NCBI RefSeq assembly: GCF_036971445.1 | Contig: NC_091482.1 | Span: 62,806,001 to 62,844,928 of the forward strand | Direction of reading: 5' to 3' | DNA: 38,928 bases | Source of the DNA: Narcine bancroftii | Taxonomy: Eukaryota | Shown: positions 13,271 to 36,928 of the stretch, one piece after another | How the letters are laid out: each line of letters opens with the position of its first letter | Position numbering within the stretch: position 1 is the first letter of the stretch | Notes under the pieces: generated by a model | What the model was told of the DNA's origin: nothing | The model's input: only the letters and a program-made list of their open reading frames with translations | Databases searched by the model: none | Program-made: the position numbers and the translations under genes

Positions 13271-13632
13271 CAGGCCATGGCAGCTGCTGATGGCGGCGAC
13301 CCCACTCGGCTGTGCCGGTGCCCACACTCTCCCGAGGAGGTGGCAGCTCTCCCACTGCGCGTGGCTCAGCCTGGCCCCCTTCACGCCCCCGGAGCGCCGC
13401 TCAGCCACGAAGCCGGGAGCAAAGAGAGCTTGGTTGACGGTCAGGTTGAAAGACAATTGGCGGCCCTGGTGCGAGAGCTTGTAGTACACGGAAGGGCTGA
13501 GCAGCCGCTGTGCCGCCAGTTCCCGGCGCTGGAGACGCCTCGGCTGGTGAGACAAGTCGTGAGACAGGAAGCGGCCCAGGTGGTCAACTTGGACTGGGTA
13601 GACAAGGTCGGGCAGAGCCTGCGGAAAAGGTT
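13271..13632 (-). CDS. ADAMTS7: ADAMTS7-like metalloprotease, coding exon 2 (prodomain)
   Basis: Acceptor CTCTCTCTCCCCAG|AA and donor CTG|GTAAGA; 362 nt. Translates (E)PFPQALPDLVYPVQVDHLGRFLSHDL...VYYKLSHQGRQLSFNLTVNQALFAPGFVAERR...CHLLGRV...AAISSCHGL, matching ADAMTS prodomain motifs (PVxVDxxGxFLS, FNLTxNQ, APGFV, CHLLG, AAISxCxGL). Confidence 0.9.
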
Positions 13633-13989: not shown

Positions 13990-14134
13990 CCTGCACCGCG
14001 TCGCCCCAGTGGCCGTGGCCGGCAGCTCGCCCTTCGCTCAGGACAAAAGCGACGAGAGTGGTCAGCACCCGGACAACGCCCCGCATGTTCCCCGCGAGGT
14101 CCCGCTGAGCTCCAGCCGGCTGCCCCCGGGCCAT
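13990..14134 (-). CDS. ADAMTS7: ADAMTS7-like metalloprotease, coding exon 1 (signal peptide)
   Basis: ATG at 14134 in strong Kozak context (GCCATGG), with a second in-frame ATG at 14086. Encodes MARGQPAGAQRDLAGNMRGVVRVLTTLVAFVLSEGRAAGHGHWGDAVQ, which has a hydrophobic core. Ends at donor CAGG|GTGAGT (phase 1), in frame with exon 2. Lies in a CpG-rich region. Confidence 0.78.
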
Positions 14135-25960: not shown

Positions 25961-26184
25961 ACCCAATGAGCCAGTGGATCGAGCTGAAGGGCAGCTAACA
26001 TCGAACAAAGGCAGGGTGGGTGAAAAATCCAGTTATACCAAGAGATCATTCACACCAGCTCTGAGAAAGGATACCCAATGAGCCAGTGGATCGAGCTGAA
26101 GGGCAGCTAACATCAAACAAAGGCAGGGTGGGTGAAAAATCCAGTTATACCAAGAGATCATTCACACCAGCTCTGAGAAAGGAT
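25961..26184. repeat. 112-bp tandem duplication
   Basis: 25961-26072 and 26073-26184 are identical except tcgaac versus tcaaac. Confidence 0.95.
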
Positions 26185-27274
26185 AAGGAGCCATGGAAGA
26201 GATGGCCAATCACTGATGAGAGAATGACTCACGTGGCCAAACATCAGCTGATACATTCTAAATCCCAAAGAAAAACCAGGAGACTGCAGATGCCAGAATC
26301 TGGAGCAAAATAACAGTCTAATGGAGGAACTTAGCAGGTCGAGCAGCATCTATGGGAGAGAAAAAAAAAAATCGACGTTTTGGGTTGGAGCTCTTTATTC
26401 AGTCTTGATGAAGGGTTCTGATCCAGAATGTCAACCATTGTTTTTCTCCCTCTGATGCCATGCGACTCACTGAGTTTCTCCAGGAGAGTACTCCAAAAAA
26501 TCTGCAGATGTTGACATTTTGAAATAAAACAGAAAATATTGGAAATACAAAACAGGTCAGGCAACATCTGGGGAGAGAGAAACAGAGTTCATATTTCACG
26601 CCTGAGAGCTACATCTAAGCTGCTATTAGTTGAATTGAAGAAGAGCCTCTGACACTAGACAACAATTCTTTTTTGTAAGTTTTGCTTCCTGAAAAAAAAT
26701 TGGGGATTGTGATAGACAACTACAAGCTGTACACAGAGATAATTTCAGATTTGCTGTATCACATAGGAAGTCAGAGAAACATTAATTTTTATTGACATTA
26801 ACATGTTTAATAGTGCTAACAGATTGCTCTCAGATTGAGTGCACATGTTGCACAACAAATGTGAGGAGTCCAGGATTTGTCTTGGTCACCAATTTTACAA
26901 CTGAAGTAGAGTTCATAGGCTTTCTTAATAAGTATTGTCATGCTGTGTCTTTGAGCCTTAAGTGTATACTCACCACAAATGTTAACAGAATGGATCCCAG
27001 CTGTTGCAACATTTGCAAGACATTACTGCTATAGTGAATCTTCCTGAAGGCAATAAATGCTCTTGTTAAGTCCCCTCACTGTGCTATTGCCTGAAGAACA
27101 TGTGCATCAACTTGCATTCAATCTATATCAATGTAATGCACAGCATCTGTAGATGTGAGCTGCTTTTATAATCTGTCTGCCTCTATCCTGTCGAAGCATG
27201 CCCAAGCCTAAGACAATATTTGCATAGCACCTGTCCTGAGAGCATGCTTGGACTGACCAAAACAGCTTGCTAAA

Positions 27275-32357: not shown

Positions 32358-33299
32358 TGTCTAAACACCTTTTATTTCCACATGCAGTCATATCATGTGA
32401 GCATCCAAACAAAATACATAGATCTGTTACGTGCATCAATCTATCTTATTTGAATTCTGTTCATGAAGCATCATAGATTTAGGCACCCAATTAACCTCAT
32501 TCTAACCAATATGCAGTCACCTATACTTCTTGATATGCCCATTGTGACACTTACAAGCTTAAAGAGGAGAGGATCAGAGTAAATCTTATAGAATTTACCA
32601 TTGTGTCATGACTATAGAAGCACTTATATACAATAACAATCTCATTTGTCTACATGACTCCCATTACAGGTAGAGTGCACCTGTCGAACTCCTCCCCCCC
32701 ACTGAGATTACCAGAGGTTAAATCCTTAATCATTCGGTAACCAATTGATGTTGAAAACATCAGTCCTTAGATGGAGTTTAGCTGTTATGCTTTCCATCAA
32801 ATATACACTTTCTTTCCATTGTTGGACAGTTGGTGGTTTTACATTTCTCCATAATGAAACAAGCTGAATTCAATAAATGTTAATTTACTGTTTCTCCACC
32901 TTCCTCCGTGATACAGCAAATCTGAAATTATCTTTATGCTCATCTTGAAGTTGTCTATCATAATCCCCCATATTTTTCTGGAAGCAAACTTTAAAAAACA
33001 ATATTGGTCAGTATTATTGGACATTGGAGACACACAAAATTGCAGATGCTCGAATGCTGAGAAGCTGGAGCGACTCAGCGGGCTGGGCGGCATCTGTGGG
33101 TCAGTGGATGATTCGGTTCGCGACCCTTCATCAAGATAAATAATTTGACACACCGTTACGGGACCACGCGGGCACAAAACACACGCATCAATGAGAAAAT
33201 TTGAACTGAGGCGTTGATTGGTACCTAACATGAAGTTAATAGAAATCCTCAAAATAGTTTTATTGGACTATTATGGAACAATGTGCTCAGGTCCAAAAA

Positions 33300-34229
33300 T
33301 GAAAGCTTTTTTCCCGTGGAAGATGAGCACTCGGCGAGGAGCTCTGAATGGTCAGCACGACCAAGGTGTCTCTTGGCAGTGCGGCCGGTTCCTGTTTAAT
33401 CTCCAGCCGTGGATTGTGGCTCGATACGCCGAAGCACTGCACCGAGAGACCTGGTCCCGGTTTTACCGCAGAGCACACAAAAAACGAAAGTTCTCGCCAG
33501 TGAGTTACGAACAATGACCCTCGGCCACAGGCGACACCACAGATTGGAATGGCCATTTCCCAGAGTGATGGACAAAATTAATTTCTCGCCTTCGGGGTGG
33601 GGGTGGCGGGGGGCGAGGAAATGCCTATGGGTACCCCGGGTGACTGCCCTCTTTGAGAAGCTGCCCCATCTCCTCTGGGTGATGGAACGGGTTAGAATCC
33701 CAGAACCTTTCTTCATTAACTGATACCCATTGATCGTCCAGCTCCTCGTTGCTCCAACTCGGAAACTCTAACGTTTATTACATCGCCAAACCAAACAAAT
33801 GCAAATAAAGGTCCAGAGCTTTATTCTGATCTTGCTCGGACAACCACCTCCACCCCCCGAAACCTTCAGTTTCAGCACCCCGGACAGTGGCAGGGCGCAC
33901 GCCCGAGTGACGCGTCCTTGGACCCGTGGCCGTGCAGAATCCTCCAAGGCACAGCCAATGGGAGCGCGGGATGGGCGGACAGTCCAGGTTGACTTGATTC
34001 AAACCGGAGATCCGCCTTGACTCCTAAAGACCAGAGAAGCAACCGAGGTCCCCGAGTTTCCGCGAGTCTGTGGCCAAATTTGGCCCTCAGCCGCACACCG
34101 GACCAGCAGCTGCTATCGTTAAAAAAAAAGCACGTTTGTTTGATGTCTCTTGCTTTGGTGCTGAGGCTGGGATGTGAATTGGTCTCATTAGTAAGTCAAG
34201 AGCCACTCGAATGCAGCAGGCTGGAAACC
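33300..34229 (+). promoter_or_regulatory. CpG-rich putative promoter/5' region of the RXFP3-like gene
   Basis: CpG-rich sequence upstream of the ATG, with a CRE-like TGACG near 33908 and CCAAT at 33955-33959. Function is inferred only. Confidence 0.4.
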
Positions 34230-35303
34230 ATGGATCATTTGATGTTGACCGTGTGGGTGCACAACTTCTCCTCGAGGTCGACAGAGCAGAACTGCAGCCT
34301 GGATAAGATGGAGCTGCAGGGAGACGGCTCCCCCGCTCTGAGGATCAGCATCTCCATGACCTCATCCATGGTGTGCGCCGTCGGTGTGGTGGAAAACCTC
34401 CTGGTCTTCTGATGAAGGCGAAGCCAGGGCGCAACAAATCCTCCACCATCGATGTCTTTATTCTCAATCTGGCGGCGACCGACTTCCAGTTCTTCATGAC
34501 CCTGCCGTTTTTGGCGGTGGACACAGCTCTGGACTTCAGCTGGCCTTGTGCAAGATCAGTCATGAAGATGTACGCCGGCGTTTTCTTCCTGACGGCTATG
34601 GGCATTGTCCGGTACTGGTCGGTGGCGTCAGCCCAAAAGACCAGGAGTCGCCGGTGGTCCTGCTCGGGGAAATGGATCAGTATCCTTCTCTGGGCGGTCG
34701 CTGGTCTGGCCACGTTGTCCACCGCTGTCTTCTCCGCCGCCGGCGAACACCTCTGACTGCTGGATTTCCCGTACTGGCTGGCACTCTACCACATGCAGAA
34801 GATTGTGCTCGCCTTTGTTCTGCCCATGGTCACGCTGACGGTCTGTTACCTGTTCCCCCTCAGATTTTTGAGGCAGCAAACACCCCCAGGAGAAAGTCCC
34901 GAGCGACCAGGTCCATCATTATCATCGCTTTCTTCTTCTGCTGGTTACCCAACCACCTGATTACATTCTGGGGCGTCTTGGTCAAACTCAACGTCATTCC
35001 TTGGGACAGGGCGTACTACTCCATGCAGACCTATGCGTTCCCAATCACCGTGGGCTTGGCGCACACAAACAGCTGCCGGAACCCGGGACTCGACTGCTTC
35101 ACGAGGCCCGAGTTCAGGAAATCCGTAAAAGAGTCTTCTGGAAGATCTCCAATCCGGCTTGGGCCAGCCCCGTCAACCGGGAGCCCCTACACCTCCAAAT
35201 CGGGATCTCTCTGAACGTTGTGGAGAGCGCGAATGACAGCCGGGACTCGGATTCCAACAGAAAGTGCTCCCTGCAACTGCACCACACAACCCAATCCCAA
35301 TGA
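34230..35303 (+). pseudogene. Relaxin-3 receptor-like GPCR (RXFP3 family, rxfp3-3 type) pseudogene, intronless
   Basis: Three ORF frames stitch into a class A GPCR: DGSPALRISIS..VCAVGVVENLLVF / NLAATDFQFFMTLPFLAVDTALDFSWP / MYAGVFFLTAM..RYWSVASA / WLALYHMQK / CWLPNHLITFWGVLVKLNVIPWDRAYY..YAFPITVGLAHTNSC. Lesions: frameshift with TGA at 34410-34412, in-frame TGA at 34754-34756, frameshifts near 34880 and 35128, and several short deletions. Confidence 0.9.
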
Positions 35304-36267
35304 ACCTCGGTTTGAGCCTTTATTACAATAACCGGGCAACCCTCATGCAGAAAGGGGATCGCTGCTGGGAATGCCTTCTTCATCAACATTGGAGATTATG
35401 GGCAAAGCCGCGGCTGCTTTGGCCAATTCTCCCTTCCTTTGGCTTTAGAGACGACAAACTCGACGCTCAATCGCATTCAGTTTCCTTACAATTTTTTAGA
35501 AGTTGTGGTTTAGTTTCTGAAATGTATTGGGGGGGGGGGGGGGGAAATGAACGTGATCATCCAACCTGTCCGTCTCAGGGCTCGAGAGAAGCAGCCTCAT
35601 CTGCGTGGACTCGGGGTGGGAGGGAGATCAGATCACGACTCGGGCAGCCGTGGGTCAGATGTTTCTTTGCCCGTGCAGTTCGTAGTAAGTGACCTTACGG
35701 AGGGGGCTTTGCCTTCGGGCGCTACGTGCAAGACGAATCCCCCCCCCCCACCTTGAGAACCCGCACTAGAAAAAAAAGACTAAGGTCCTCTTGATTTGTT
35801 AATTAAAAAAGTTATTCAGTTATGTGGTGGCATATTTATTTAAAGTTTTGAAGTGTTACCATTATCCGTTTCCTGAAATTTCATTCAATAATTGTTTTCA
35901 ATGGGACCGCACCTATTTAACGTGGTTAACTTTTGTTTTTTTAATAATCATATGTCAAAGGATTGATAGATGACCTGTCATAAATCCGCCAAAATCTATA
36001 AATATCGAGCGAACACTTTTGACCATGTTATTAACCTTTAAAAGGATGAAGTGGAACGAAGACTTTCTTCTTAGTATGATGGACTTTTCCAGCATTTCAT
36101 GAAATGATTTTTTTTTGGACGGGGGAAGGGGGATGAACGAGCAAGTGTCAGGACTTGCACAGTTTTGTCCATGGTGTGAATGCTAGATTGTTCAACTTCT
36201 ATAATTGAATATTTAAAGCTTGGAGCGACGGTTATTTAATCCAATCTATCATATAAACACGTTAAAG

Positions 36268-36928
36268 AGGGAAGTCTGCAGACGCCGTGGCTGAAGTGAT
36301 CACGTTCATTTTCGCCACCCCCCCCCAAAATACATTTCTGAAACTAATCCACAACTTCCAAAACATTGTAAGGAAACTGAACGCGATTGAGCTTCGAGTT
36401 TGTCGTCTCTGAAGCCAAAGGAAGGGAGAATTGGCCAAAGCAGCCGCGGCTTTGCGCATAATCTCCAATGTTGAAGTGCTGGGGAAACTCAGCAGATCAC
36501 GCAGCATCGAAACGATTTGGGCCTGAGACCCTTCGTCTGGCCTGAATAAAAAGGGGACGGAGGAGAACCGGTGGCCTCCTCGACATCGGAGACACTTGGT
36601 ATAGACCGGGAGACCGTTTCGCTCCGTTGGCTGCAATAACGGGGACCTCCCAGTGGCAACTCATTTCAATTCCACACCCCATCTCTTCTCTCCAACCCCC
36701 CACCCCCCCGCATGTCTGCCCCTGTCCTCGTACACTGCCAAACGGAGACCACCCGCAAATTGGAGGAACACCTAATATTCTCTTCAACCAGACCCCTCCA
36801 GTTTTCTCTTTCCCCCGCCCTCTGCCTCCATTCCCCCAGCTCCTCATCTCTTCTCTCTTCTCCATGCAGAGAGCTCTTCTCTTCCTCGATCACCAGCTTT
36901 CCCCCCCCCTCTAACCCTCCCACCTCTT
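36268..36928 (+). mobile_element. Penelope-like element fragment with an inverted 5' terminal repeat
   Basis: The reverse-oriented tail (gtctgcagac...aactcagcag) precedes a degraded ggcctcctcgacatcggagac GIY-YIG remnant homologous to about 19140-19450. Confidence 0.7.
36297..36474 (-). repeat. Inverted duplicate of 35383-35559
   Basis: The reverse complement matches tcaacattggagattatg...aaatgaacgtgatca with scattered substitutions. Confidence 0.93.

What the first reader, a model, noticed from the sequence alone, without database searches (positions are those of the whole stretch)
34230..35303. Relaxin-family receptor (rxfp3-3 type) appears to be dead: possible lineage-specific loss of a neuropeptide GPCR
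Seen in sequence: a frameshift after TM1 (34410), TGA at the ECL2 position where the conserved disulfide Cys is expected (34754), frameshifts in ICL3 (about 34880) and the C-tail (about 35128), and substitutions in hallmark motifs (TM1 GN->EN, NSCLNPVLYC->NSCRNPGLDC). It lies beside an ADAMTS7/12 gene, as human RXFP3 lies beside ADAMTS12. This suggests a unitary pseudogene at its ancestral locus rather than a retrocopy (inference).
Basis: partly seen in the sequence, partly recalled or inferred. Interest (0 to 1): 0.7.

Follow-up and report, generated by a model that had tools for sequence, protein, structure and literature searches.

The report
Electric ray lost relaxin receptor rxfp3-3
In an electric ray, the gene for one relaxin-family hormone receptor (rxfp3-3) is broken by six frameshifts and a stop codon at what is likely the same ancestral spot where humans carry a dead copy; it is a real but familiar kind of gene loss, likely tolerated because three sister receptors and the likely hormone genes remain.

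Summary
Against seven intact ray orthologues, 34230-35303 has 11 deletions (116 bp; six shift the frame), one 3-bp insertion and TGA at the ECL2 cysteine. It has changed 29 of 183 conserved core residues, against 5 of 204 in the genome's intact rxfp3-1. Trees place it in the ray rxfp3-3 clade. It lies between an ADAMTS gene and MORF4L1, matching the human RXFP3-3 pseudogene at chr15:79.12 (PMC3310001). Contigs from other samples carry the lesions. No intact copy was found; three paralogues plus rln3 and an insl5-like gene look intact. Exact protein matches label the genome's paralogues Narcine bancroftii. Full-length orthologues exist in 19 other cartilaginous fishes; one is truncated and two species were not seen. 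Loose end: a possibly antisense RNA contig spans the locus.

The parts
34230..35303 (+). rxfp3-3 pseudogene: single-exon coding remnant, from the ATG aligned with the sawfish Met1 to the old stop region
   Evidence: trees
34143..34229 (+). In-frame upstream ATG and a 29-codon extension resembling the N-terminal extension of skate orthologues; possibly the original start
   Evidence: local scores 88 and 77 against P0003 and P0125
34405..34412 (+). 4-bp deletion at the end of TM1 giving TGA at 34410-34412; the product from 34230 stops after 60 aa
   Evidence: bridged by contigs of X1, X5 and X6
34546..34559 (+). Two mutually compensating out-of-frame deletions (13 + 14 bp) that remove 9 codons of ECL1/TM3
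   Evidence: bridged by X1 and X5
34736..34771 (+). Two in-frame 12-bp deletions in ECL2, flanking TGA 34754-34756 at the conserved ECL2 cysteine
   Evidence: bridged by X1 and X5
34878..34927 (+). 13-bp deletion in ICL3 (frameshift) and 6-bp deletion in TM6
   Evidence: the ICL3 break is bridged by X1, X5 and X6
35053..35108 (+). Cluster of TM7 substitutions (C301G, L309R, V312G, Y314D, L316F, R319P; four are T>G within 40 bp)
35133..35260 (+). C-tail deletions of 1, 27 and 8 bp
   Evidence: X1 and X5 cover all three, X6 covers the first two
33814..35011 (.). Colinear 1198-base contig of run X5 (RNA by guess), depth 42.5, with 3 allele differences and no gaps; strand unknown
33820..33825 (-). 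AATAAA on the minus strand, 6 bases inside the left end of the X5 contig (hint of an antisense polyadenylated RNA)
35362..35559 (+). Former 3' flank; left arm of a local inverted duplication
36297..36495 (-). Right arm of the inverted duplication (88% over 186 nt)
13990..14086 (-). Predicted first coding exon (signal peptide) of the neighbouring ADAMTS gene, likely ADAMTS7
   Evidence: ATG and GT donor, phase matching exon 2
13271..13632 (-). ADAMTS propeptide exon (Pep_M12B_propep, E 1.9e-18)

Best explanation
This is a dead rxfp3-3 receptor gene, broken by six frameshifts and a stop codon and lying between an ADAMTS gene and MORF4L1, and it was likely lost in the electric-ray lineage because sister receptors made it dispensable. 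Shown: the lesions, orthology to intact ray rxfp3-3, the gene order, relaxed constraint, and open reading frames for three paralogues, for rln3 and for an insl5-like gene. Inferred: one first inactivating change was tolerated because RLN3/INSL5 signalling could still run through rxfp3-1, rxfp3-2 and an rxfp4-like receptor; the sequence then decayed neutrally, likely for tens of millions of years; and no receptor is made (the product from the ATG ends after TM1). It parallels the independent losses of the same ohnologue in tetrapods, including human.
For: Lesions: 11 deletions, 1 insertion and 1 stop. Relaxation: 29 of 183 invariant core residues changed, against 2-11 of 200 in four intact rays and 5 of 204 in the genome's own rxfp3-1 (Fisher p 2.6e-6; the two five-species reference sets differ in one shark). 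Orthology: it falls inside the ray clade with 100% SH-aLRT, in the group holding database-named rxfp3.3 proteins (quick trees). Synteny: 8 MORF4L1 exon matches 15-36 kb downstream on the same strand, found with a paddlefish model that fuses rxfp3-3 with MORF4L1. The paralogous ADAMTS/rxfp3-1 head-to-head pair is on C8. The human RXFP3-3 pseudogene is at 15:79.12 Mb, and an ADAMTS7 SNP lies at 15:79.09 near MORF4L1. Not an assembly error: the X5 contig (33814-35011, a second haplotype with 3 differences) has no gap, and X6 pieces bridge three frameshifts with no difference. No intact close copy: the best other hits are 62%, 51% and 47% identical to the sawfish orthologue, and the DNA search finds only 68-71% paralogues. 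Ligands are retained.
Against: Redundancy as the cause is untested; ligand-receptor pairing of rxfp3-3 is unresolved even in teleosts (PMC3449138, passages). Teleost rxfp3-3 genes are under strong purifying selection (same paper), and 19 other cartilaginous fishes keep a full-length model, so it is not dispensable everywhere. Two of the surviving paralogues have very long branches (1.4 and 2.2) and may have changed function; their names are provisional. The age is not calibrated: the epaulette-shark rate (7e-10 per generation) would need about 9e7 generations, so it cannot be transferred as is. The species' reference assembly is reported to miss some exons of another gene (PMC13023373, passage), so an unassembled duplicate is not strictly excluded.
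Confidence: 0.9

Rival explanations
1. The protein is dead but the locus has a second life as a non-coding, likely antisense, polyadenylated RNA of about 1.2 kb made in one tissue from a retained CpG-rich region.
For: Run X5 (RNA by guess) has one colinear contig over 33814-35011 at depth 42.5, while its listed neighbouring unique contigs are at 3.5-4.7. X7 has only short pieces at 2.8-5.2, and X8 holds next to none of the words. The left end lies 6 bases past a minus-strand AATAAA, and 2.8% of local positions are so placed. No plus-strand AATAAA or ATTAAA lies near 35011. CpG observed/expected is 0.73, as in two of the three intact paralogues (0.70, 0.73; third 0.50), against 0.33 in the upstream background.
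Against: Contigs cannot show strand, ends or expression level, RNA status is only a guess, and no splice joint was seen at the locus. It comes from one run of one study. Pervasive transcription from CpG islands needs no function, and nothing shows selection on the RNA.
Confidence: 0.15
2. This is a redundant duplicate whose intact twin is missing from the assembly.
For: The species' reference assembly is reported to lack two exons of another gene (PMC13023373, passage). Genome searches score only the best candidates.
Against: The copy sits at the syntenic position. At 85% likeness, none of 4 runs laid showed a longer second copy; the only divergent pieces were 26-37 bases long. No electric-ray rxfp3-3 protein appeared among the 120 best hits of either search.
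Confidence: 0.04
3. The lesions are assembly or sequencing errors.
For: None, beyond the general risk for frameshifts.
Against: Most deletions are 4-27 bp and not homopolymer slips; amino-acid decay accompanies them; contigs of X1, X5 and X6 reproduce them.
Confidence: 0.01
4. The loss was adaptive, tied to the feeding or neuroendocrine biology of electric rays, like the INSL5-RXFP4 losses in carnivorous mammals.
For: Repeated loss of INSL5-RXFP4 in carnivores is published (PMC6386725, passages), and rxfp3-3 is a proposed Insl5 receptor in teleosts (PMC3449138). An unchecked scan note reports FFAR4 loss in this genome.
Against: Here the insl5-like gene and an rxfp4-like receptor are intact, unlike the paired loss in mammals. 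Other carnivorous rays keep the gene. Unchecked notes list several unrelated losses in this genome, which fits general gene shedding as well.
Confidence: 0.1

Closest known systems
Intact elasmobranch rxfp3-3 (database label 'relaxin-3 receptor 1(-like)': P0001 Pristis, P0002 Mobula, P0123 Hemitrygon, P0004 Leucoraja; P0191 Callorhinchus, named rxfp3.3b)
   Same: Orthologous by tree; 70-76% identity in read-through; single coding exon; same motifs where not decayed.
   Different: This copy has six frameshifts, a stop, 116 bp deleted and a longer branch (0.31, against about 0.05-0.14 from the ray fork for intact rays).
Human RXFP3-3 pseudogene, chr15:79.12 Mb (Yegorov and Good 2012, PMC3310001; passages and supplement 8 seen)
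   Same: Same 2R ohnologue, dead in place near ADAMTS7/MORF4L1, with RXFP3-1, RXFP4 and the ligands retained.
   Different: Independent event in a cartilaginous fish; the ray also keeps a likely rxfp3-2, which tetrapods lost. The human sequence was not compared here.
INSL5-RXFP4 loss in carnivorous mammals (PMC6386725; passages seen)
   Same: Loss of a relaxin-family peptide GPCR by inactivating mutations.
   Different: There ligand and receptor are lost together and the receptor is RXFP4; here only rxfp3-3 is lost and the insl5-like gene is intact.
Human RXFP3 (PDB 9kfi) and RXFP4 (PDB 7yj4)
   Same: Best solved-structure matches; peptide-binding class A GPCRs.
   Different: Paralogues, not orthologues; the window's sequence cannot encode a seven-helix receptor.

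Membership tests
RXFP3/4 family, rxfp3-3 ohnologue | Class A GPCR sequence closest to RXFP3/RXFP4 | tested here: met
   Pfam 7tm_1 in 3 of 4 pieces; top PDB hits are RXFP3, then RXFP4
RXFP3/4 family, rxfp3-3 ohnologue | Groups with rxfp3-3 rather than rxfp3-1 in a tree | tested here: met
   Inside the ray clade (100% SH-aLRT) within the group holding proteins named rxfp3.3a1/a2/b; the genome's rxfp3-1 falls in the other clade (quick method, no bootstrap)
RXFP3/4 family, rxfp3-3 ohnologue | Conserved position matching human 15:79.12 Mb (ADAMTS7-MORF4L1) | tested here: met
   MORF4L1 exons downstream and ADAMTS exons upstream; human coordinates. The name ADAMTS7 is inferred from position, not from a sequence test
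RXFP3/4 family, rxfp3-3 ohnologue | Intact seven-helix frame with TM3-ECL2 disulfide and TM7 NP motif context | tested here: not met
   TGA at the ECL2 Cys, 9 codons lost at ECL1/TM3, frameshifts: it is a pseudogene, not a working member
RXFP3/4 family, rxfp3-3 ohnologue | Binds RLN3 or INSL5 and signals through Gi/o | not testable with these tools
   Ligand pairing is unresolved for rxfp3-3 even in teleosts; the Gi/o coupling is recalled
Unitary pseudogene (definition recalled) | Disabling mutations that are real and not limited to one haplotype | tested here: met
   X5 contigs (second haplotype) cover all 12 indels and the stop; X6 bridges three frameshifts
Unitary pseudogene (definition recalled) | No functional copy of the same gene in the genome | tested here: met
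   Searches find only older paralogues; limited by assembly completeness and candidate scoring (105 of 364 candidates scored)
Unitary pseudogene (definition recalled) | Intact orthologues in related species | tested here: met
   Full-length models in 7 rays, 11 sharks and 1 chimaera; Cetorhinus model truncated; none seen for Hypanus sabinus or Mustelus asterias
Unitary pseudogene (definition recalled) | Neutral evolution (dN/dS near 1) | tested here: inconclusive
   No orthologous DNA was available; the protein-level proxy shows a six-fold excess of change at invariant residues over the genome's own rxfp3-1
Processed pseudogene (retrocopy) | Lies away from the parent locus, with an intact parent elsewhere | tested here: not met
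   It occupies the syntenic locus and no parent was found; lack of introns is uninformative because the paralogues are also single-exon

The most novel reading that the evidence does not exclude
Electric rays lost rxfp3-3 early, in parallel with humans and at the same locus, and the relic has been recycled into a tissue-specific antisense polyadenylated RNA transcribed towards ADAMTS7. Its decay, rich in 8-27-bp deletions and with clustered T>G changes, would record an unusual local repair or mutation process in this heavily rearranged genome.
Probability: 0.12. Interest if true: 0.55.

Novelty: new member of a known kind. Interest (0 to 1): 0.3.

Why it matters
It extends the repeated loss of the RXFP3-3 ohnologue, so far described for tetrapods, to a cartilaginous fish. 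It also supplies a natural knockout among rays that otherwise keep this receptor: comparing a numbfish with a stingray or skate could help settle which peptide (RLN3 or INSL5) rxfp3-3 serves, an open point in teleosts. The many lesions also make a convenient marker for dating the loss across electric rays. As a kind of event it is ordinary.

Tried and rejected
Search for fragments of the same pseudogene from other electric rays among 63-202-aa proteins: 2 hits of 26 candidates, neither from a ray by name or identity; a blank, not evidence. No RNA holder on record was listed; uncovered parts in X6, X7 and X8 are not counted as evidence. The Pfam insulin search found 12 matches (an insulin, four IGF-like genes by sequence, two relaxin-like A-chain exons) but missed rln3 and the insl5-like gene, which motif patterns then found. 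B-chain exons for the two relaxin-like A-chain exons were not found in 20 kb upstream of each, so they remain unassigned. GC-biased gene conversion as the cause of the substitution pattern: rejected, W>S 21 of 290 against S>W 13 of 204, p 0.86. A dramatic deletion mutator at this locus: weakened. The first control gave p 0.003 for 7 of 12 indels of 8 bp or more; after realignment with cheaper gap extension the background share was 22-27% and p was 0.006-0.02, post hoc (52 of 97 independent repeat pairs used, those under 20% divergence). Microhomology at the deletions could not be tested without orthologous DNA. The T>G/A>C excess (16 of 38 changes in that class against 19% background) shrinks to small numbers on the stricter site set (5 T>G of 17 changes). 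One search used a truncated shark model and undercounted invariant sites; it was superseded. The careful tree did not finish, so quick trees were used. The name ADAMTS7 could not be checked by a sequence look-up. The bacterial promoter scan is irrelevant here. Locus L076 was fetched but not analysed. Literature searches listed no paper on rxfp3-3 in cartilaginous fishes; the library lacks most subscription journals, including later reviews of this family, and bioRxiv supplements were closed.

Full report
Observation. The stretch 34230-35303 (+) encodes pieces of a class A GPCR spread over three frames. Three of four pieces match Pfam 7tm_1, and the best solved-structure hits are human RXFP3 and RXFP4. 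A frameshift-aware alignment to the sawfish orthologue P0001 gives 270 of 354 identical residues. A nucleotide alignment to a codon profile of seven intact ray proteins resolves 11 deletions (116 bp) and one 3-bp insertion, with the same sizes under three gap settings. Six deletions shift the frame (4, 13, 14, 13, 1 and 8 bp, after 34408, 34546, 34558, 34878, 35133 and 35259) and five do not (6, 12, 12, 6 and 27 bp). TGA at 34754 replaces the ECL2 cysteine. Translation from 34230 ends after 60 residues.

Is it real? Seven of eight listed runs hold the stretch or a part of it. X1, which may be the source sample, matches 33900-35431 without a difference. X5, a different sample of the same organism label and another study, gives one contig over 33814-35011 with three allele differences and no gap, and another over 35083-35404 with none; together these cover all indels and the stop. 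X6, labelled a different organism and from a third study, has five listed short pieces over the gene without a difference, bridging three frameshifts but not the stop. X6 is nearly identical to the window in the other listed pieces too, so it does not date the loss; a recent mitogenome study finds one cohesive Western Atlantic Narcine lineage (PMC13546158, abstract). X5 may be the other haplotype of the same animal rather than a second individual. Either way the lesions are on two haplotypes.

What it is. The closest proteins are from rays. Two intact paralogues from this genome are letter-identical to records labelled Narcine bancroftii, an electric ray. In two quick IQ-TREE runs (35 and 23 rows) the read-through nests in the ray clade with 100% SH-aLRT, inside the group that holds proteins named rxfp3.3; the genome's gene at C8:50.75 Mb falls with rxfp3-1. 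Upstream on the minus strand lie ADAMTS exons (propeptide E 1.9e-18; exon limits; further exons). Downstream on the plus strand lie eight MORF4L1 exon matches at window-scale positions 50658-70908, found with a paddlefish gene model that fuses rxfp3-3 to MORF4L1. Yegorov and Good located the human RXFP3-3 pseudogene at chr15:79.12 Mb (PMC3310001; passages and supplement 8), and an ADAMTS7 SNP lies at 15:79.09 Mb near MORF4L1 (PMC10469559, passages). The intact rxfp3-1 has its own head-to-head ADAMTS propeptide exon about 33 kb upstream, the likely ADAMTS12 pair. So the window holds the ancestral rxfp3-3 locus; the name ADAMTS7 is inferred from position.

Is it the only copy? Protein searches of G000 find three intact RXFP3/4-type genes, at 62%, 51% and 47% identity to the sawfish orthologue, and then unrelated GPCRs at 37% or less for either query apart from one at 41% (105 of 364 candidates scored). 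The DNA search finds only the window, a local inverted piece and two paralogues at 68-71%. I read the three as rxfp3-1, rxfp3-2 and rxfp4-like; the last two have very long branches and their names are provisional. Both exons of rln3 (C8:249.36 Mb) and of an insl5-like gene (C11:93.70 Mb) are open, with B-chain and A-chain cysteines in place (names from recalled motifs). The ligands were therefore not lost with the receptor, unlike the paired INSL5-RXFP4 losses in carnivorous mammals (PMC6386725, passages).

Other species. Full-length models in the orthologous clusters come from 7 rays, 11 sharks and 1 chimaera; not all of them were put in the trees. The Cetorhinus model stops in TM6. None was seen for Hypanus sabinus (RefSeq-annotated) or Mustelus asterias (whose rxfp3-1 is present). 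These may be annotation gaps or further losses. No other electric-ray genus was represented by name.

Decay and age. Of 200 core residues invariant in five reference species, 183 are in register in the pseudogene and 29 have changed (15.8%). Four intact rays differ at 2-11 of 200, and the genome's own rxfp3-1 at 5 of 204 (p 2.6e-6). At fully determined nucleotide sites the change is 38 of 494, or 17 of 282 on a stricter 15-sequence set. The only rate I could cite (7e-10 per generation in epaulette sharks; PMC10587355, passages) would need about 9e7 generations, which approaches or exceeds the roughly 195-212 Myr since electric rays split from other rays (bioRxiv 2025.02.26.637739, passages). 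The intact rxfp3-1 branch is about twice the skate's (0.13 against 0.066), so this lineage is likely faster. An age of tens of millions of years is my inference, not a measurement.

Mechanism. The best reading is loss of a 2R ohnologue in place, tolerated through overlap with sister receptors, followed by neutral decay. Redundancy is inferred. In teleosts rxfp3-3 genes are conserved, brain-expressed and of unresolved ligand (PMC3449138, passages). Tetrapods lost RXFP3-2 entirely and RXFP3-3 often. Unchecked scan notes list other in-place losses in this genome (FFAR4 exon 1, pinopsin, REXO5, ARL10, a Myb-type gene), which makes one more loss less surprising.

Loose ends. (a) The X5 contig is about ten times deeper than its listed unique neighbours and ends 6 bases beyond a minus-strand AATAAA (2.8% of local positions are so placed); the region keeps CpG observed/expected of 0.73. 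This hints at an antisense polyadenylated RNA, but contigs cannot show strand, ends or level, and RNA status is a guess. (b) Seven of 12 indels are 8 bp or longer, against 22-27% in repeat pairs from the same genome (p 0.006-0.02, post hoc), and four T>G changes cluster in 40 bp of TM7. (c) About 190 bp of the 3' flank is duplicated in inverted orientation about 750 bp downstream, at 88%.

Novelty and score. The kind of event, and loss of this very ohnologue, are known. The listings showed no paper on rxfp3-3 in sharks or rays, and the scan had no look-alike note. PMC12702675 (passages) adds only general background. PMC10195156, on lost genes giving lncRNAs, was seen only in a search listing. 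Verdict: a well-supported new instance of a known loss; interest 0.3.

Noticed in passing
window 35362-35559 and 36297-36495: Local inverted duplication of the old 3' flank (88% over 186 nt, arms about 750 bp apart), found nowhere else in the genome by the DNA search.
   Followed up: partly
window 33814-35011: Run X5 contig about ten times deeper than neighbouring unique contigs, ending beside a minus-strand AATAAA; possible antisense RNA.
   Followed up: partly
window 34648: An X6 contig matches 34542-34648 exactly and then continues with 173 unrelated letters: an insertion in that sample or a chimeric contig.
   Followed up: no
window 32900-36800: CpG-rich stretch (observed/expected 0.54-0.95 in 300-base bins, against 0.33 upstream) that is wider than the pseudogene.
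   Followed up: partly
P0006 (Cetorhinus maximus): The rxfp3-3 model has an unrelated N-terminus and stops in TM6; possibly another broken copy or an assembly fault. No rxfp3-3 protein was seen for Hypanus sabinus or Mustelus asterias.
   Followed up: no
L004 (G000:C8:287.56 Mb) and L002 (G000:C11:191.53 Mb): The likely rxfp3-2 and rxfp4-like genes are intact but on very long branches (1.4 and 2.2); their nearest orthologues were not in the tree.
   Followed up: partly
L036-L045: Besides insulin, four IGF-like genes appear in the genome (C1, C11, C23, C27), each with B- and A-domain exons.
   Followed up: no
L046 (G000:C8:295.42 Mb), L047 (G000:C1:6.29 Mb): Two further relaxin-type A-chain exons with open frames; their B-chain exons were not found within 20 kb upstream by my motif.
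   Followed up: partly
L011 (G000:C22:79.40 Mb): GPCR match in an open frame of only 120 aa; possibly another broken receptor gene.
   Followed up: no
window 9446-10154 and 25961-26185: A perfect 19-bp minisatellite of 37 copies inside the ADAMTS intron, and a 112-bp tandem duplication at 99%.
   Followed up: no
L024-L025 (about 77.6-80.2 kb before the window start): An 864-codon minus-strand open frame with a thrombospondin-like repeat followed by a long low-complexity region, likely the mucin exon of the ADAMTS gene.
   Followed up: no
repeat pairs in 489 kb of fetched G000 DNA: Neutral DNA of this genome shows 0.08-0.14 indels per substitution, mean 5.4 bp, with about a quarter of 8 bp or more; no other species was available as a control.
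   Followed up: partly
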